Under the pieces are notes generated by a model. That model saw only the letters and a list, made by a program, of their open reading frames with translations. It had not been told where the DNA came from and searched no databases. Of a stretch of DNA of 64,000 nucleotides, positions 8,307 to 62,411 are shown piece by piece; the first letter of the stretch is position 1; each line of letters opens with the position of its first letter. The DNA is taken from positions 81,716,001 through 81,780,000 of the forward strand of contig OX597822.1 in the NCBI GenBank assembly GCA_951406725.2. Direction: 5' to 3'. Source of the DNA: Octopus vulgaris (taxonomy: Eukaryota). The translations under genes were made by a program, and so were the position numbers.

Positions 8307-9714
8307 ATATAAAATTAACATTTTCTTAAAAATAAATTCATATTTATATTTTTGTATATGTCTACATTCATACCATTAAAACCTCATTATACATATTAGT
8401 TAACATCTGAAAGCCATTACTTCTCATGGCATCAGCCATAGATGGAAAGGCATTCTTGATGATGGTATTGTTATTATTTAACCCCTGGTCTATCTTTATT
8501 GAGAATACTTATAACTAAAGCAGTCAAACCATCTTATTTTCAGAAAGTGTACATTAATCAGTTTGTTTCTTTTAAGATGTGTAGTTTGAGAGAGTTTTGG
8601 CTGGTATTGAGGCTTTCCTCTTTGGCTTTTACTGGTCAATTATAGGCTATACTCTCTTCTCCAAATTCAGGATTTCAGCAATCATAATTTCTAGGTACTT
8701 TGGTTCAACTGAAAATTGTAAATATACTTGGCTTCATCACTTTCAGTGACTTGGGTGTACACAATCCTTCCTTACTCAAGAATTTGCACTCTTCCTACAC
8801 AATTACGACCAATTACAGAGAATGTTAGCCATAATATTTACTAACCCCAACCCTACTCTATTGCAATTTTCAAAAAGTATATCAAATAACAGCAAAGTAT
8901 GTTGTTTATTATAATAAGTGGCTCTTTTAGTTGTGTGTGTGTGTAACGATGATTCGTTTAATAGACTTACCAGAGAAACCAGCCGTCTTTTGTATTTAGT
9001 GACTTCTATGGTACTTGATGATATTGTAATAGCAGATTAAACCTGAAGTAGACCTGGAGTAGAGACAGTATATCATTGATGAGGTTACAAATGGCAACAA
9101 AAGGATTTTGACAAACCTAATTAACCAAATAATTAATCTAACAATCAATTTGTTAATTGGTTAAATAGTTAACTAATTGACAAGCAAATAATAGAACCAG
9201 TGTGTGTATGTGTGTGTTTATTATTGGCATAATGACACTCCCACAATACAACAAAATCTGTTTCAACTCACAAGTTCACATCAAGAATCTTGCAAACCAA
9301 ATACAAAAATGGAAAATTACCAGATGCCTAACTTTGGTATCAGTGGCACTACACAAAATGCCAACCATTTAATGGTCAATGCATTTGCCATTCTGAACTG
9401 GTTGAACTGCTTTGCATCCATACCTACCTAAATCACCGGCTCTTGTAAGATGAATCTCAGGTAACTCATCTAGTCAGGCTACATATCTTATTCGAATAGC
9501 ATAAAAATTTTCCCAACTTTGAGTTTTGTTCTATATTGTCATTGCCAATATAGAAGACAGAATGGGAGTAACTGCAGTGTAGCTGGAAAGCGAGATAAAA
9601 ATAGTCTCATCTTACTTTCAGAAAGAGTACATTAATCAGTTTGTTTCTTTTAAGATGTGGTGTAGTTTGAGGGAGTTTTGGCTGGTATTTCTAGCAAGGC
9701 CAAGTGTCACCTCA

Positions 9715-10075
9715 CTGACTCCCATGCCAGTAGCATGTAAAAAGCATCGTTCGAATGTGGTTGATGCCAGTGCTGCCTGACTGGCTCCAATGCCGGTGGC
9801 ATGTAAAACATGCCACTTGAGTTTGGTCGATGCCAGTGCCGGCTGACTGGCTCCCATGCCGGTGGCATGTAAAAGGCACCATTCAAACGTGGTCGATGCC
9901 AGTACTGCCTGACTGGCTCCCATGCTGGTGACATGTAAAAAGCACCCATTACACTCTCGGAGTGGTTGACATTAGGAAGGGTATGCAGCTGTAGAAACCT
10001 TGCCAGTCCACTGTCAAACCATCCAACCCATGCCAGCATGGAAAGCAGACGTTAAACGATGATGATGATGATGAT
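9715..10075 (+). mobile_element. RTE LINE 3'UTR fragment with about four tandem ~62-bp units
   Basis: Repeated tgactggctcccatgccggtggcatgtaaaa-gcacc units, then the conserved 3' end ending gttaaac(gat)n. Confidence 0.8.
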
Positions 10076-13308: not shown

Positions 13309-16300
13309 TCTATATATAAAACTAAGAATGTGTGTGTGTCTGTCTGTGTGTTTCCCTAAAACTTGAGAACTACACAACCAATTTCATTCAAATTTTACAC
13401 ATGCCTTACTTAAGGTCCGGGGAGTGTCATTGGCAAAAAGAATTTTAACTTTTATCCTTGGGCGACCCCACAGCAATATCATATCTTCTCCACTATTTCA
13501 GTATTACATGTTAAAAGTGAAACAAAAACATCTCTCTTTTGTAATGCAGACACTTACATTTTAACACTGAAACTATTAAAGTGAAAGTAGTATATAACAG
13601 GGATGAACCATTAATAGTGGTCATCCATTTTGCTAGAAGAAGATCCACTATGGTCTTATATGCTACACCACTGGTTTTCAATTCATATCAATCAAATAAA
13701 TATTCAATTTTTCACCCTTATATATGTGTGTGTGTGTGTATTAGCAATTCGTATAAAATTGCATCAATGACTTGAACTTGAATAAGTGGTTTCACATAAA
13801 TGGGGATAAATTAAAAAGGTTTGTTATTATTATTATTGTTTGATTATTGTAATCAGATTTGTTAGTTCCTCGTCAGGGAAACGTTGTTGTGTTACATTTG
13901 TTAAATAATTGTAAACCGTAACCCTCCCCCTTTCGGAGAAGGGGCTTTGGTTATTGTTTAAAAATTGAATTGTGTCCCTGTTTGGGGAAATTGACAATAT
14001 TTTCACCGTCTTTACGGAAGCATTTTTGTTAAAATGCCTTCGATAGTAGAAAGTCCAAAAATGAATTTCGCTGCAGTCGTACACTTCTATACAAGAGGGA
14101 GAACAAGATCCAATTGATCGAAATTGCAAGAGATGGGCCTACAATTCCAGTCTATTATATATTTTGAGTATTGTTATCACTAGCGATATCAAGATATAAC
14201 TTTGTATTTTGTATTTTATGTGTAGATGTATATATATAGATGTACATGTAATATGTACACATATATATACACATTTATACATGCATAATATATCTACCCA
14301 TACACACATACGCGCACACACACATACATAGGGGCAGGTGTGGCTGTGTGGTAACAAACTACATTCCAAACACATGGTCCTGGTTTCAGTCCCACTGTGT
14401 GGTGACTTGGCATATGTCTTCTGCTGTAGCCTCAGACCAACAAAAGCCTTCTCAGTGGATTTTGTACATATATACAGGCATACGTACATATTCGGCATAA
14501 ACACTCTACCACTACAACTAATAACTTGGGAACACTTTCAAACCTGCCTTACATTCCATGGAGGTTCCTACAAGAAACTCAGACAGGTGCTGATGGATAT
14601 CCATCATACAGATGCAGAAAACCAGAAGACGGAGGTTTCACAGCAACTATTGGACAGCACGATATTGATAATAGATGGATTATTCCATACTGCCCACTCC
14701 TGTCAAAGACTTTCAATGCCCACATCAACGTTGAGTTTTGCAATTCTATTAAATCCATCAAGTACGTTTGCAAATATGTAAACAAGGGTTCTGACGCTGC
14801 AATGTTTGGACTTCAACAAGAATACTGCCAGGATGAGGTGACGCATTATCAGGTGGGACGGTACATAAGTAGCAACGAGGCTTTCTGGTACATCTTTGGC
14901 TTTCCAATTCACCAACGACACCCCGCCATTCAACAGCTTGCAGTGCACCTGGAAAATGGTCAAAGTGTGTACTTCACCGATGCTAATGCTTCTCTGTTGG
15001 CAGAGGAACCAAGGGATAGCACACTCACTGCATTCTTCAAGCTTTGTCAAGTGGATCCATTCGTTCAAACCTTGCTGTATCCACAGATTCCATTGTACTA
15101 CACTTGGAATGGAAAAAAATGGGCCCCACAGAAAGCAGGTCAAAATGTTCATGGATACCCTGGCATTAAGTTCACACTTGCCTTGGGCAAGTATACACAG
15201 TGCATCCCGCTCAACAAGAGTGCTTCTACCTTCGTCTATTACTGCATGAGGTCAGAGGGCCAACATCCTTCCTCGATGCTCCTGGAGAGACAGGAAAAAC
15301 ATTTATTACAAAGCTTCTCCTTGCAGAAGTTAGGCAGCATCAGGACATTGCAGTAGCTGTAGCCTCCTCTGGCATTGCAGCTACTTTGTTACCCGGTGGC
15401 AGGACAGCACACTCAACTTTTAAACTCCCTCTCAATTTAGCAGTATCCGAAATGCCTTCATGCAACATCAACAAAAGCTCAGCTCAGGGACAAGTACTTA
15501 AAATGTGTCATCTAATTGTCTGGGATGAGTGCACTATGGCTCACAAGGGAGCTTTGAAAGCATTAGATAGAGCCCTGAAAGACATCCGAGACTGTCAGGC
15601 TCCAATGGGAGGTGTAACGCTTCTGTTGTCAGGTGATTTCAGGCAAACTCTTCCTGTCATTCCGAAAGGCACTAGAGCAAATGAAGTCCAAGCATGCCTA
15701 AAGTCCTCTACTCTGTGGCATCATGTTCCAATCCTCAGTCTCTTCACTAACATGAGAGCTCAGCTACACGGCAACAAAATGTCCACAAAGTTTGCACAGG
15801 ACATTTTGACACTTGGTGAAGGCAAGAATGCCTCTCGATGCTGCAGGACAAATGGAAGTGTGGTCATTTTCCTCTGTTGTTAATTCTGTAGACGACCTCA
15901 AAAACAGTCTTTCCCAACTTCACACAAAACTACCAAAATCACAATTCGCTGTGTGAAAGAGCAATATTAGCTCAAAAAAACGTCGCTGTTAACAAAATTA
16001 ATCAACAGCTAATGCACTCTCTTCCTGGCACTATACACACTTACAAGTCTGTTGATACAATTCCAGATATAAATGAAGTTGTGAACTATCCTCCTGAATT
16101 TTTCAATTCACTGGAGCCTCCTGGACTACCTCCACACATATTAGCACTTAAAGATGGAACTCTTGTAATGCTACTCCGCAATCTGGAACCACCAAGATTT
16201 GCAATAGAACACGACTGGTGATAAAGAAAATGATGTCACACGTTATCGAGGCGATCATTCTTATTGGATGTGGAAAAAGTGATGACGTCTTTATTCCAAG

Positions 16301-33417: not shown

Positions 33418-33642
33418 TTATTTACATTTGACGGATATATCTCCTCATCTCGTTTGTTGTTAACACAACATTTCAGCTGATATACCCTCCAGCTTTCATC
33501 TGGAGTCTTGGGGAAATTTTGAACCTGGATTCTCATTCCTAAGGTATTTTTTGATGTTATTATTATTATTCAGGTAACTACCTGGAGTTGAACTTGGAAT
33601 CTTAGGGTCAGTAGCCTACGCTTTTAACCACTATGCCATATG
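33418..33642 (-). mobile_element. tRNA-head/hammerhead element, copy 2 (degenerate)
   Basis: Aligns by eye with 3984-4219 and 55940-56180; hammerhead core mutated. Confidence 0.75.
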
Positions 33643-33827
33643 GTTATTAGTTTGCTAGAGAAGGGGCTTAGATCAGTGCCACACCAATACGTAGCAAGTT
33701 TCCAGGAAAGAAAGAAGCATTATGAAATGCTTATGTAATATTGTATTATTTGTTTACAAAATAAACATAAAATTTTTTTAAATAACCAACTTTTATTATA
33801 TTCATTATATAAAAAAGCACCATCCGA

Positions 33828-33996
33828 CGTCTTCGCGGCGTCCGCTCGGCCGGTTCAGGGGCAGCGCATCTGCGCCCGTCCCTTCCGGTCATGACGATAC
33901 GGTCAGCCTTCCGCATTGGTCGCGGCGCAAATATTAGCAGCCGCCGCGCCTTCCGCGCGCGGGTCCTAGGCGTGCGGCGGCTTCACGCCCTTCGAT
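33828..33996. other. GC/CpG-rich structured segment of unknown origin
   Basis: Very GC-rich against an AT-rich background; hairpin gccgccgcgcct (33940-33951) / aggcgtgcggcggc (33968-33981). Confidence 0.7.
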
Positions 33997-35176
33997 TTTG
34001 ATCTCTGTCGGCACCCTATTTGATCTCTGTCGGCACCCTATTTGATCTCTGTCGGCACCCTCTTTGATCTCTGTCGGCACCCTCTTTGATCTATGTCGGT
34101 ACACTCTTTGATCTCTGTCGGCACCCTCTTTGATCTCTGTCGGCACCCTCTTTGATCTCTGTCGGCACCCTCTTTGATCTCTGTCGGCACCCTCTTTGAT
34201 CTCTGTCGGCAACCTCTTTGATCTCTGTCGGCACCCTCTTTGATCTCCGTCGGCACCCTCTTTGATCTCCGTCGGCACCCTCTTTGATCTCTGTCGGCAC
34301 CCTCTTTGATCTCTGTCGGCACCCTCTTTGATCTCTGTTGGCACCCTCTTTGATCTCTGTCGGCACCCTCTTTGATCTCTGTCGGCACCCTCTTTGATCT
34401 CTGTCGGCACCCTCTTGATCTCTGTCGGCACCCTCTTTGATCTCTGTCGGCACCCACTTTGATCTCTGTCGGCACCCTCTTTGATCTCTGTCGGCACCCT
34501 CTTTGATCTCTGTCGGCACATTCTTTGATCTCTGTCGGCACCCTCTTTGATCTCCGTCGGTACCCCCTTTGATCTCCGTCGGCACCCTCTTTGATCTCTG
34601 TCGGCACCCTCTTTGATCTCAGTCGGCATCCTCTTTGATCTCTGTCTGCACCCTCTTTGATCTCTGTCTGCACCCTCTTTGATCTCTGTCTGCACCCCCT
34701 TTGATCTCTGTCGGCACCCTCTTTGATCTCTGTCGGCACCCCCTTTGATCTCTGTCGGCACCCCTTTGATCTCTGTCGGCACCCCCTTTGATCTCTGTCG
34801 GCACCCTCTTTGAACTCTGTCTGCACCCTCTTTGATCTCTGTCGGCACCCTCTTTGATCTCTGTCGGCACCCTCTTTGATCTCTGTCGGCACCCTCTTTG
34901 ATCTCTGTCGGCACCCTCTTTGATCTCTGTCGGCACCCTCTTTGATCTCTGTCGGCATCCTCTTTGATCTCAGTCGGCACCCTCTTTGATCTCAGTCGGC
35001 ACCCTCTTTGATCTCTGTCTGCACCCCCTTTGATCTCTGTCGGCACCCTCTTTGATCTCTGTCGGCACCCTCTTTGATCTCTGTCGGCAGCCTCTTTGAT
35101 CTCTGTCGGTACCCTCTTTGATCTCTGTCAGCACCCTCTTTGATCTCTGTCGGTACCCTCTTTGATCTCTGTCGGT
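33997..35176. repeat. Tandem array of ~54 x 22-bp unit TTTGATCTCTGTCGGCACCCTC
   Basis: Directly visible and highly homogeneous, with scattered single substitutions and two 20-bp units. Confidence 0.97.
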
Positions 35177-35598
35177 ACCATCCGAACGTAGCCGATGCCA
35201 GCGCTACCTTGATTGGCTCCAGTGCCGGTGGCACATAAAAAGCACCATCCGCACGTGGCCGATGCCAGCGCTGCCTCGACTGGCTCCAGTGCCGGTGGCA
35301 CATAAAAAGCACCATCCGAACGTGGCCGATGCCAGCGCCACCTTGGCTGGCTTCCATGCCGGTGGCACGTTAGAAGCACCAACCGATCGTGGCTGATGCC
35401 GGACCCCCCTGGCACCTGTGCAGGTGGCACGTAAAAAGCACCCACTACACTCGCGGAGTGGTTGGCGTTAGGAAGGGCATCCAGCTGTAGAAACTCTGCC
35501 AGATCAGACTGAAGCCTGGTGCAGCCCCCGGTTTCCCAGACTCCGGTTGAACCGTCCAACCCATGCTAGGACGTTAAACGATGATGATGATGATGATG
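35177..35598 (+). mobile_element. Young RTE 3' end (its 5' stub is at 33811-33827)
   Basis: CpG-rich tandem ~65-bp UTR units, conserved 3' end and (gat)n tail. Confidence 0.85.
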
Positions 35599-35849
35599 AT
35601 ATTGTTTCTGGTATAAATTAATATTACTAGGAAATATTACCGGACCCTGGCACACTGGAAACAAAAACTACCAGTATGCCACATCAGATAGTTTGAGAAG
35701 CATTGGTTTAGATGACATAACCAAATCTCATGACACACCAGAATCAATAGTGTGCATCAAAGATAAGCCCCAGGCTGCAATCTTAAAGGAAACTTCTAGT
35801 GGAAGATATGAGAAATGGATGAAGTTCAGAGGCAGGCAACTTCAGTTAA

Positions 35850-37429: not shown

Positions 37430-37900
37430 GCATCATCACCATCATAATCATCATTTAACATCTGCTTTTCATGCTGGCATGGGTTGGTCGATTTGGCTGA
37501 GGTTTGGCTGCACCAGGCTCCAATCTGATCTGGCAATGTTTCTACCACTGGATGCCCTTCCTTTCTTATGCCAACCACTCTGAGAGTGTAGCAGGTGTTT
37601 TTTTACATGCCTCCAACATGGGAGCCAGTCATGGGGGCACTGGTATCAACCACATTTGGATGTTGCTTTTGGATGTGTCACCGGCACAGGAGACAGTCAG
37701 GGGGCACTGGCATCAACCACGTTTGGATGGTGCTTTTTACGTGCCACCAGCACGGCAGCCAGTCAGGGGGCACTGGCAGCATCAACTACGTTCGGATGGT
37801 GCTTTTTACGTGCCACCAGCATGGCAGCCAGTCAAGGGGCACTGGCAGCATCAACCACGTTCGGACGGTGCTTTTTATGTGCCACCTGTACGGGAGGAAG
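37430..37900 (-). mobile_element. RTE 3' end with tandem UTR units
   Basis: (CAT)n tail and about four repeated ggtgctttttacgtgccaccagca units. Confidence 0.75.
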
Positions 37901-39456
37901 TCAGGGGGCCTCATGCAGTGGCACATAAAAAGCACCATTCAAACGCAGTTGATGCTAGTACGGATGATGTTGGCATCATATACACGTGTGTGTGATTGGC
38001 TCCTTTCAATCAAATCCACTCATGATTTGGTTGGCCCAGAGCTATTGTAGTAGACACTTTCTCAAGATGCTGAGCAGTCCAATCTCTGTTTTCTGATTTG
38101 AAATAATAGGGTGAAATTTGAAAGATATTTTTACTTTATTTCTATCAAGTCAAGTTGCCACGTAGATGCTCCTATCAAGCTGATATTTTGCAGTTTCTAC
38201 TGGTTATGCCTGTTCATCTTTGTACATATATATCTACATATGGGTGTGCGTATAGAACAAAAAAAATAACATTTCATCTGTTATATATTATTGTTATAAC
38301 TCTGTATTATTTCCTTTTGTTTTTATAGCCTTTTTTATTTTTCTAATGTATTTTATTTGTTGTTGTTTATTCTTTGTTTCTATGACTGCTTCACAAGCCA
38401 TGTGTATTTGTGAATGTATAAACAAAATAAGCTAAGACTCTTTCCAAACTGTTCCATGTGTTTATTATCAAAATAATAAATACAGAAACCTATACTAAAC
38501 TAACAAAAACAGCCATTGTGTGTATGCGCGCGCATGCACACACAGCTTTCAAATTTTAGCACAAGGCCAGCAATTTTGAGAGAGGGGGCATGTTAATTAC
38601 ATCAACCCCAGTGCTCAACTGGTACTTATTTTATCAACCCTGAGAGGATGAAAGACAAAGTTGACCTCAGTGGAATCCAAACTCAGAATGTAAAGATAAA
38701 TGAAATGCCACTAAGCATTTTGCCTAGCATGACAACGATCCTGCCAGCTTGTCTGCCTATGCATATGTATATATATATAGTCACAATGAAGATATTTAAG
38801 CCTCTTATAGGGATATTTATCCAAGATACATTGGTTTAATATATTAAATTTTGTAGAGATATTTCTTCAAAGAATATATTATATAAAATATCGTAAAATA
38901 ATGTTTGATATTTTATATATATTACTAACTACAAGTATGACTTGAGGTAGAAAAAGAAAAAAAAGGGAATATGTTCAGCTACATACACTGTCACATCCAC
39001 CTCGAATCAGATTGTCTATTTCTGCTATCAGGATATCTTGAGCTTTTCATCAATTTTTTTTCGCTCCTTCCTTGATTTGAGTTTTATTTATGACCCAGGT
39101 CCTGACTATTTCAATACAGAATTAAATATCGGTACTTCCATTCAGGTGCTTCATTGGGTTGGTTTGGCAATCCTGACAGTGCCCATCACCTCACCCAGGT
39201 TTTCGTTTTGTAACCATACTGGGCTCTTATACACCCTCCTCACTTGGCAAGCCTTATAGGAGGTCCAATTTAGTCAGTGGTTGCTCAAACCATTGCTAGG
39301 TGGTACTAGATTACACAGCTACCAGAAGCAGGTTTCCAGCAGCTGGTGATGGAATTGGTGCTGACTTGACAATATGCAGATTAGTGACAGTGTTAATACA
39401 ATTACACACACATACATGCATATATTTACATACACACACACACACACACACACACT

Positions 39457-62114: not shown

Positions 62115-62411
62115 CATCGTCGTCGTTTAACGTCCACTTTCCATGCTGGCATAGGTTGGACAGTTTGACCGAGGACCAGCAAGCCAGAAGGCTGCTTCAA
62201 TCTGATCTGGCAAGGTTTCTACAGCTGGATGCCCTTCCTAACGCCAACCACTCCGAGAATGTAGTGGATGCTTTTTACGTGCCACTGGCATAAGGGCCAG
62301 TCAGGCAACACTGGCAACAACCACATTTGAATGGTGCTTTTTACATGCCACCGGCACGGGAGCTAGTCAGGTGGCACTGGCATTGACCACACTCAAATGG
62401 TGCTTTTTACA
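62115..62411 (-). mobile_element. RTE 3' end, tail-to-tail with fragment 62066-62105
   Basis: Reverse complement of the RTE UTR; forms a local hairpin 62067-62150. Confidence 0.8.

What the first reader, a model, noticed from the sequence alone, without database searches (positions are those of the whole stretch)
33811..35185. 1.35-kb cassette (structured GC head plus 54 x 22-mer) inside a young RTE, with 9-bp direct repeat and 3' microhomology
Seen: accatccga at 33819-33827 and 35177-35185 brackets 33828-35176; removing the insert restores RTE aaaaagcaccatccgaacg. The repeat unit ends in gcacc, matching the target gcaccatcc, so the last unit runs seamlessly into the flank. The insert is CpG-rich and homogeneous, so probably recent. 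Inference, three options: (a) a retroposed RNA whose 3' 22-mer was copied reiteratively, telomerase-style, by a target-primed RT; (b) RTE RT switching template onto a satellite or rDNA-spacer transcript and back; (c) capture during break repair. Any of these would show how a minisatellite is seeded at a new locus.
Basis: partly seen in the sequence, partly recalled or inferred. Interest (0 to 1): 0.75.

Follow-up and report, generated by a model that had tools for sequence, protein, structure and literature searches.

The report
Retrotransposon tail carries satellite and rRNA
In an octopus-type genome, a piece of 18S ribosomal RNA gene and 54 copies of a 22-base repeat are fused to the tail of a jumping gene, likely stitched together by that gene's reverse transcriptase hopping between RNAs, and the repeat-plus-tail also stands at two other places, so this tail likely carried the repeat to new sites.

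Summary
The 'structured head' folds no better than shuffles; it is a sense fragment of the genome's own 18S rRNA (nt ~255-476). The 22-mer belongs to a genome-wide minisatellite family (38 loci examined) and is absent from rDNA; this scan noted that family before on other DNA as TCF-site satellite. The exact array-to-RTE junction, a private variant unit and three derived tail alleles recur at two other loci with unrelated flanks, so array+tail moved as a unit. The whole 1.79-kb composite sits in an (AT)4 tract of an older repeat with 0-1 bp duplication. The left junction was later copied onto a Penelope 3' end elsewhere. Dispersed 18S fragments end at nt 475-478 in 7 of 19 cases, once directly on an RTE tail. 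Best reading (0.62): one RTE reverse-transcription event with template jumps (tail, array, 18S, back to RTE); the 9-bp repeat would be a by-product. Rival (0.25): later insertion with a true TSD. Telomerase-style copying from the head is refuted. A new variant of multipartite LINE chimeras that documents minisatellite seeding.

The parts
33690..33811 (.). Left half of an older dispersed repeat; ends in the (AT)4 target tract
   Evidence: 40 matches in the genome; of 23 paralogues other than the C6 copy, 21 also match the window's right flank
33809..33827 (+). 15-19 bp piece of an RTE 3'-UTR unit (ATA shared with the target), ending in the first ACCATCCGA
   Evidence: junction with 18S exact at 2 loci
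33828..34000 (+). Sense fragment of the genome's own 18S rRNA gene, nt ~255-476, with 22-bp and 30-bp internal deletions; last 4 bases (TTTG) shared with the array
   Evidence: deletions absent from the C6 copy
33997..35179 (+). 54 x 22-bp minisatellite of a genome-wide family; 49 units keep CTTTGATC, a TCF/LEF-type core
   Evidence: consensus SCTTTGWWSWW from PMC4154663
35177..35600 (+). 3' end of an RTE-type LINE: four ~67-bp units, unique 3' part with a private 11-bp deletion, (GAT)n tail
   Evidence: upstream ORF in a longer copy is RT-related
35599..35720 (.). Right half of the older repeat; with the left half it restores the empty site
33520..33937 (+). Stretch copied (in an earlier, undeleted state) to C6:40.7255 Mb and fused there to a Penelope-like 3' end

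Best explanation
The 1.79-kb stretch 33811-35600 is a four-part fusion (RTE piece, 18S rRNA fragment, 22-mer array, RTE tail, all in one orientation) that was likely written into an (AT)4 site in one target-primed reverse-transcription event, the RTE enzyme likely jumping between RNA templates at short microhomologies. Shown: identity and orientation of the parts, the clean empty site, microhomologies of 2-4 bases at the tail, array-RTE, 18S-array and 5' target joints, two sibling copies of array+tail at unrelated (TA)n sites, and a copy of the left junction on a Penelope 3' end. Inferred: RT started at the (GAT)n tail, copied ~420 nt, continued into array RNA (by a jump here, or because a master RNA already carried array+tail), jumped to an 18S fragment whose 3' end lies at a recurrent breakpoint (nt 475-478), then back to an RTE unit for 15-19 nt; the 9-bp repeat would be the overlap between leaving and re-entering the 67-bp RTE repeat, not a TSD. 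Afterwards array+tail RNA was retroposed again, seeding 62- and ~167-unit arrays at C3 and C9; the window or a master now missing from the assembly was the source.
For: Junction array-RTE exact at 3 loci only; variant unit found in 7 matches, all in these 3 loci; 3 derived tail alleles shared by the 3 (one also in L103); siblings 5'-truncated inside the array, in (TA)-rich tracts, no shared flanks; only these 3 of 38 array loci have a sense RTE tail at the array's 3' end. Empty site restored with 0-1 bp overlap. A sister RTE tail is fused directly to 18S nt 293-475 at C1:96.96 Mb. 7 of 19 dispersed 18S fragments end at nt 475-478 (18 rows in rDNA units or long rDNA pieces and 1 doubtful row left out of 38; binomial p 5e-6 under an assumed 4% null); 3 more end at 463-469 in front of another SINE/LINE-type tail. 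Young RTE copies L105 and L106 show repeated short unit pieces at their 5' ends. Other arrays of the family mostly lack TSDs (1 plausible 7-bp case in 22 blocks). Precedents: tripartite chimeras (PMC2104539); sense 28S/L1 chimeras with a recurrent position (PMC11838501).
Against: The 9-bp repeat restores the RTE perfectly, as a TSD would; re-entry by the CGT microhomology predicts one more A than is seen. Without the cassette the RTE is an ordinary ~440-bp 5'-truncated copy. Three jumps in one event are rare. C3 and C9 siblings share array variants in their last 6 units that the window lacks, so the window is not simply their direct parent. No RNA evidence: no RNA holder was laid. No TSD around the whole composite. 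Only the window, of 38 array loci, has an rDNA piece.
Confidence: 0.62

Rival explanations
1. Two steps: a 5'-truncated RTE inserted first; later an 18S+array cassette was reverse-transcribed into a staggered nick 15-19 bp from its 5' end, giving a true 9-bp TSD; the window then became the master for the C3, C9 and C6 copies.
For: Perfect restoration of the RTE and 9-bp repeat; window is the only copy with both RTE units 1 and 2, from which each sibling derives by one unit skip; the locus did act as donor to C6; other arrays of the family join flanks by microhomology.
Against: Arrays of this family rarely have TSDs (1 of 22 blocks); the cassette would have to land in the first ~4% of the RTE; 18S ending at nt 475 is found on an RTE tail with no array; sibling arrays share variants the window lacks.
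Confidence: 0.25
2. DNA break repair captured an 18S pseudogene piece and an array piece from chromosomal DNA (templated insertion), with no RNA step for the cassette.
Against: All four parts are in RNA sense; the 18S 3' end falls on a breakpoint shared with other retro-type copies; no locus with 18S next to an array other than the window among 38; no loss of target sequence.
Confidence: 0.08
3. A retroposed non-coding RNA (the head) whose own 3' 22-mer was copied reiteratively, telomerase-style, at this site.
For: Array variants are transversion-rich (17 of 35 against 12 of 68 in RTE tails, p 0.002), which an error-prone synthesis would give.
Against: Head is 18S and 18S does not continue with the 22-mer; unit absent from 100 kb of the rDNA region including one whole 18.3-kb unit; private variant unit shared with two siblings; siblings have no head.
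Confidence: 0.03
4. Assembly artefact or contaminant.
For: No contig was listed across 33783-33886 in four runs; no long reads seen.
Against: Each junction recurs independently; flanks restore an older repeat exactly.
Confidence: 0.02

Closest known systems
Bipartite and tripartite LINE chimeric retrogenes (Magnaporthe WEIRD/Mg-SINE/MGL; mouse B2-U6-L1; PMC2104539, abstract and section 8 read)
   Same: Copies of different RNAs fused in one orientation in front of a LINE 3' end; double template jumps proposed.
   Different: Here an RTE-type LINE, four parts, one of them a 1.2-kb minisatellite; no TSD around the whole insertion; part of the chimera was copied again.
28S rRNA/LINE-1 chimeras (PMC11838501, passages read)
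   Same: Sense rRNA fragments of a few hundred nt joined 5' of a LINE, with a recurrent position in the rRNA; template switch or RNA ligation proposed.
   Different: 18S instead of 28S; recurrent 3' end at nt 475-478; RTE instead of L1; invertebrate.
Dispersal of mini- and microsatellites by transposable elements and L1 transduction (review PMC6947457, passages read); SVA VNTR and 5' transduction (recalled)
   Same: A tandem repeat moves because it is attached to a retroelement 3' end.
   Different: The repeat is a pre-existing independent family captured 5' of the tail, not born inside the element; 3 copies, no shared head or promoter.
TCF/LEF HMG site and C-clamp Helper site (PMC4154663, passages read)
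   Same: 49 of 54 units keep CTTTGATC; the opposite strand carries GCCGACA, one base from GCCGCCR, a few bases away.
   Different: Binding and enhancer activity untested; unit is satellite DNA.

Membership tests
RTE-clade LINE (tail 35177-35600) | 3' end continuous with an RT-coding ORF; relatives single-ORF ~1050 aa with APE endonuclease and RT | tested here: met
   246-aa ORF upstream of the same tail in L198; 86 longer homologues, nearly all PF00078, many PF03372, ~1050 aa. Pfam on the fragment itself gave nothing above cut-off.
RTE-clade LINE (tail 35177-35600) | Short-repeat 3' tail | tested here: met
   (GAT)n in window and in the young copies shown; microsatellite 3' ends called common in RTE (PMC9115989)
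RTE-clade LINE (tail 35177-35600) | RT phylogeny places it in the RTE clade | not tested
   No tree built; the clade label rests on domain layout and recalled C-terminal motifs
Canonical LINE chimeric retrogene (U6/L1 type) | All parts in the same orientation, LINE 3' end at the 3' side, cellular RNA copy at the 5' side | tested here: met
Canonical LINE chimeric retrogene (U6/L1 type) | TSD flanking the whole chimera | tested here: not met
   0-1 bp overlap in an (AT)4 tract. It works like such a chimera but is not filed as a canonical member.
Canonical LINE chimeric retrogene (U6/L1 type) | All parts appear together in orthologous comparison | not testable with these tools
   No relative genome held; laid contigs did not cover the left junction
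rDNA intergenic-spacer repeat | Unit and head lie in the IGS | tested here: not met
   0 hits of the 22-mer (up to 4 mismatches) in 10 of 10 fetched rDNA-region stretches; head is 18S
Telomerase-type reiterative addition from the head RNA | Template for the unit lies in the RNA; units made independently at each site | tested here: not met
   unit not among the tandem repeats reported for 16 contig ends (those ends are not telomeric)
SINE / SVA-type composite family | Shared 5' head or promoter and many copies | tested here: not met
   Head in 1 of 3 copies; 3 copies in all
TCF/LEF response-element array | Core CTTTGWW present | tested here: met
   49 exact CTTTGATC in the array; core C/G positions vary less than other C positions across 30 loci (0.09 vs 0.17; indel shifts may inflate the latter)
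TCF/LEF response-element array | TCF binds and transcription responds to Wnt | not testable with these tools
   needs EMSA, ChIP or reporter

The most novel reading that the evidence does not exclude
The 22-mer TCF-site satellite spreads through RNA: its arrays are written into DNA breaks by reverse transcriptases (back-to-back arms, transversion-rich variants, direct hand-over to 18S rRNA here), and fusion to an RTE tail turned one array into a nascent mobile element that delivers 50-170 Wnt/TCF-type sites to new loci; in addition octopus 18S rRNA has a fixed cut near nt 475 that feeds retrotransposon enzymes.
Probability: 0.2. Interest if true: 0.75.

Novelty: new variant of a known kind. 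Interest (0 to 1): 0.46.

Why it matters
It gives a three-copy pedigree of a minisatellite being moved by a LINE tail, with source-like locus, daughters and junctions all readable, in a lineage where this is not described in the papers my searches listed. It extends rRNA/LINE chimeras from mammalian L1-28S to RTE-18S and points to a testable recurrent 18S break at nt 475-478. If the units bind TCF, retrotransposition would move large blocks of Wnt-response sites at once. Each single step has a precedent, and three copies are a small family, which limits the score.

Tried and rejected
Folding of the head on both strands: no better than shuffles; the intact 18S region does fold better (z -2.63). 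Rfam on the window stretch: nothing near gathering score. rDNA spacer as source of the 22-mer: no hit. Contig ends as source: no such array in 16 ends of 8 contigs, which are not telomeric, so uninformative. My first idea that the 30-bp deletion was an RT skip over a hairpin: rejected, the C6 copy of the same insertion still has the deleted bases. Gradient or neighbour correlation of variants along arrays: none overall (23 positive, 20 negative slopes; lag-1 sharing 0.47 against 0.44 shuffled). Higher-order repeat in the C9 sibling: no lag reached the threshold. Other array-RTE junction phases within 30 bases of GGTGGCAC: 0 matches (covers under half of the phases). Host gene in the window: Pfam on 29 of 172 ORFs found only PIF1-type helicase pieces. 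Empty allele: no contig listed over 33783-33886 in four runs, no joint seen. Sequence look-up in earlier notes: nothing. Supplements of the papers were not read and may list 18S chimeras.

Full report
Observation. The window reads as described: ACCATCCGA at 33819-33827 and 35177-35185, a GC-rich head, and a 22-bp array at 33997-35179 with 53.9 copies at 95% identity. The genome is 2.8 Gb in 227 contigs; homologue names point to Octopus (inference). The head is not specially structured. The last unit ends GGTACC, so the exact overlap with the RTE is ACC.

The head is 18S rRNA. A genome search gave 41 matches, nine of them in a tandem cluster with ~18.3-kb spacing. The flanks of these matches are the small-subunit rRNA gene (Rfam RF01960, 989 bits). 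The head is its sense strand, about nt 255-476 in the genome's own numbering, with deletions of 22 and 30 bp and 9 substitutions against one rDNA copy, 6 of CpG-decay type. It meets the array at a shared TTTG. That this is the V2 variable region is recalled, not tested.

The 22-mer is a dispersed family. An exact dimer has 410 matches on many contigs, control 0; it is absent from 100 kb around the rDNA cluster including one whole unit. I examined 38 array loci, a lower bound. They are 0.6-14 kb, often mixed with other short units; five show back-to-back arms and one is mixed; two touch degenerate TTAGGG runs; six share the same flanks, so they travel inside another element. Only the window has rDNA beside the array. 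Earlier notes of this scan describe what appears to be the same family as a satellite of TCF, TEAD and Grainyhead sites (not matched by sequence). I checked that 49 units in the window keep CTTTGATC, which fits the TCF core in PMC4154663 (passages). Binding is untested.

The flank is a LINE tail. 35177-35600 has thousands of candidates in the genome, best copies 94-96%. A longer copy carries a 246-aa ORF upstream whose 86 longer homologues are RT proteins, many with an APE endonuclease and ~1050 aa. This fits RTE; no tree was made.

Array plus tail moved as a unit. Two of the 19 closest other tails fetched were preceded by the same array. The junction is exact at three loci only: window, C3:48.04 Mb, C9:54.17 Mb. 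The siblings have 62 and ~167 units, are cut off inside the array, lack the head, lie in (TA)-rich tracts and share no flank. One three-change variant unit has 7 matches in the genome, all in these three loci. The three tails share 3 derived alleles and have 2-4 private ones in 190 bp. Only these 3 of 38 loci have a sense tail at the array's 3' end. The window alone has both RTE units 1 and 2; each sibling lacks one. Against the window as direct parent: the siblings share variants in their last six units that it lacks, and it has a private 11-bp deletion.

The whole composite has a clean empty site. The flanks are two halves of an older repeat; paralogues join them through (AT)4, so 33811-35600 was inserted with 0-1 bp overlap and AT/ATA microhomology.

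The locus was a donor. 33520-33937 stands also at C6:40.73 Mb, 407 of 441 columns identical, with the RTE-18S junction (exact at these 2 loci) and without either deletion. There it joins, at a short microhomology, the 5'-truncated 3' end of a young Penelope-like element (GIY-YIG-type C-terminus by recalled motif; 97-99% family identity). So the deletions came later, and the window's + strand was likely available to an RT.

A recurrent 18S breakpoint. Of 38 matches to 18S nt 453-475, 18 lie in rDNA units or long rDNA pieces and one is doubtful; of the other 19, 7 end at nt 475-478 and 12 run on to scattered ends from 492 to beyond 1000 (p 5e-6 to 5e-8 under assumed nulls). One of the 7 is fused straight to a sister RTE tail. 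Six further fragments end at 463-473, three of them before one other SINE/LINE-type tail.

Mechanism. Reading from the tail, an RT would copy RTE, array, 18S and a short RTE piece, each in RNA sense, and finish on the AT target. Template jumps of this kind are known: tripartite chimeras (PMC2104539, abstract and section 8) and sense 28S/L1 chimeras with a favoured position (PMC11838501, passages); RNA ligation is the alternative for a given joint. Young RTE copies here show extra unit pieces at their 5' ends. In this reading the 9-bp repeat arises because ACCATCCGA lies in every 67-bp unit. The rival is a later insertion with a real TSD; it explains the perfect restoration, but arrays of this family seldom have TSDs (1 plausible in 22 blocks) and it needs a hit within 19 bp of the RTE's 5' end. 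Sequence alone cannot separate the two; an RTE-only allele would. I give 0.62 and 0.25. Whether the array-tail joint was made here or inherited from a master missing in the assembly is open.

Reality and age. A contig of run X3 (another organism label) crosses the head-array joint without differences, 12 letters beyond it; run X9 has cover at the same place; X1 and X4 list none. The event is a few percent old and likely older than the split of those lineages.

Family-level oddity. Array variants are transversion-rich: 57-59% across 30 loci and 17 of 35 in the window, against 12 of 68 in RTE tails (saturation and local amplification inflate the family figure). With the back-to-back arms this leaves RNA-templated synthesis of the family open, which is the novel case (0.2).

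Verdict. Real; a multipartite RTE retro-chimera of which array+tail was copied twice more. It works like a chimeric retrogene but lacks the flanking TSD, so I file it as a new variant of a known kind. Eight literature searches listed no description of this family or of an RTE-18S-minisatellite chimera; the library is partial and supplements were not read. PMC9115989 and PMC6947457 were seen as passages; other papers only as listings. Interest 0.46.

Noticed in passing
G000 dispersed 18S fragments (L022/L221, L224, L226, L229, L231, L232; window 33828-34000): 18S retro-type fragments end at nt 475-478 in 7 of 19 cases; suggests a fixed cut or preferred jump site in octopus 18S rRNA.
   Followed up: partly
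L028 1420-1676, L029 1494-1636, L170 2859-3131: Three 18S fragments ending at nt 463-469 are each followed by the same SINE/LINE-type 3' tail; could be independent chimeras or a small 18S-headed SINE.
   Followed up: no
L085, L086, L087, L150, L153, L155 (C6, C8): Six 22-mer arrays of 2.5-5.3 kb share the same right flank and a Helitron-like left motif (label recalled, not tested): a second vehicle for the same satellite.
   Followed up: partly
L145 region, C9:114.03 Mb: Large palindrome: 182 units one way, 111 the other, with the same outer repeat and junction mirrored on both sides.
   Followed up: no
L127 (C7:76.38 Mb), L143 (C8:56.73 Mb): 22-mer arrays run directly into degenerate TTAGGG tracts far from contig ends.
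   Followed up: no
30 array loci: The CpG in the unit (positions 10-11) varies little (about 3%) although CpG decays in the neighbouring 18S fragment; variants are transversion-rich.
   Followed up: partly
L160 4660-5655 (C6:40.7255 Mb): Chimera of 440 bp from the window locus and the 3' 540 bp of a young Penelope-like element.
   Followed up: yes
window 15170-16221: Broken PIF1-type helicase ORFs (PF05970, PF21530), probably a Helitron remnant.
   Followed up: no
window 9710-9946, 37600-37909, 62269-62411: Further, older RTE 3'-UTR unit arrays of 66-69 bp.
   Followed up: no
L024 1426-1707 (C20:58.80 Mb): 18S fragment nt 183-515 flanked by a ~45-bp imperfect duplication.
   Followed up: no
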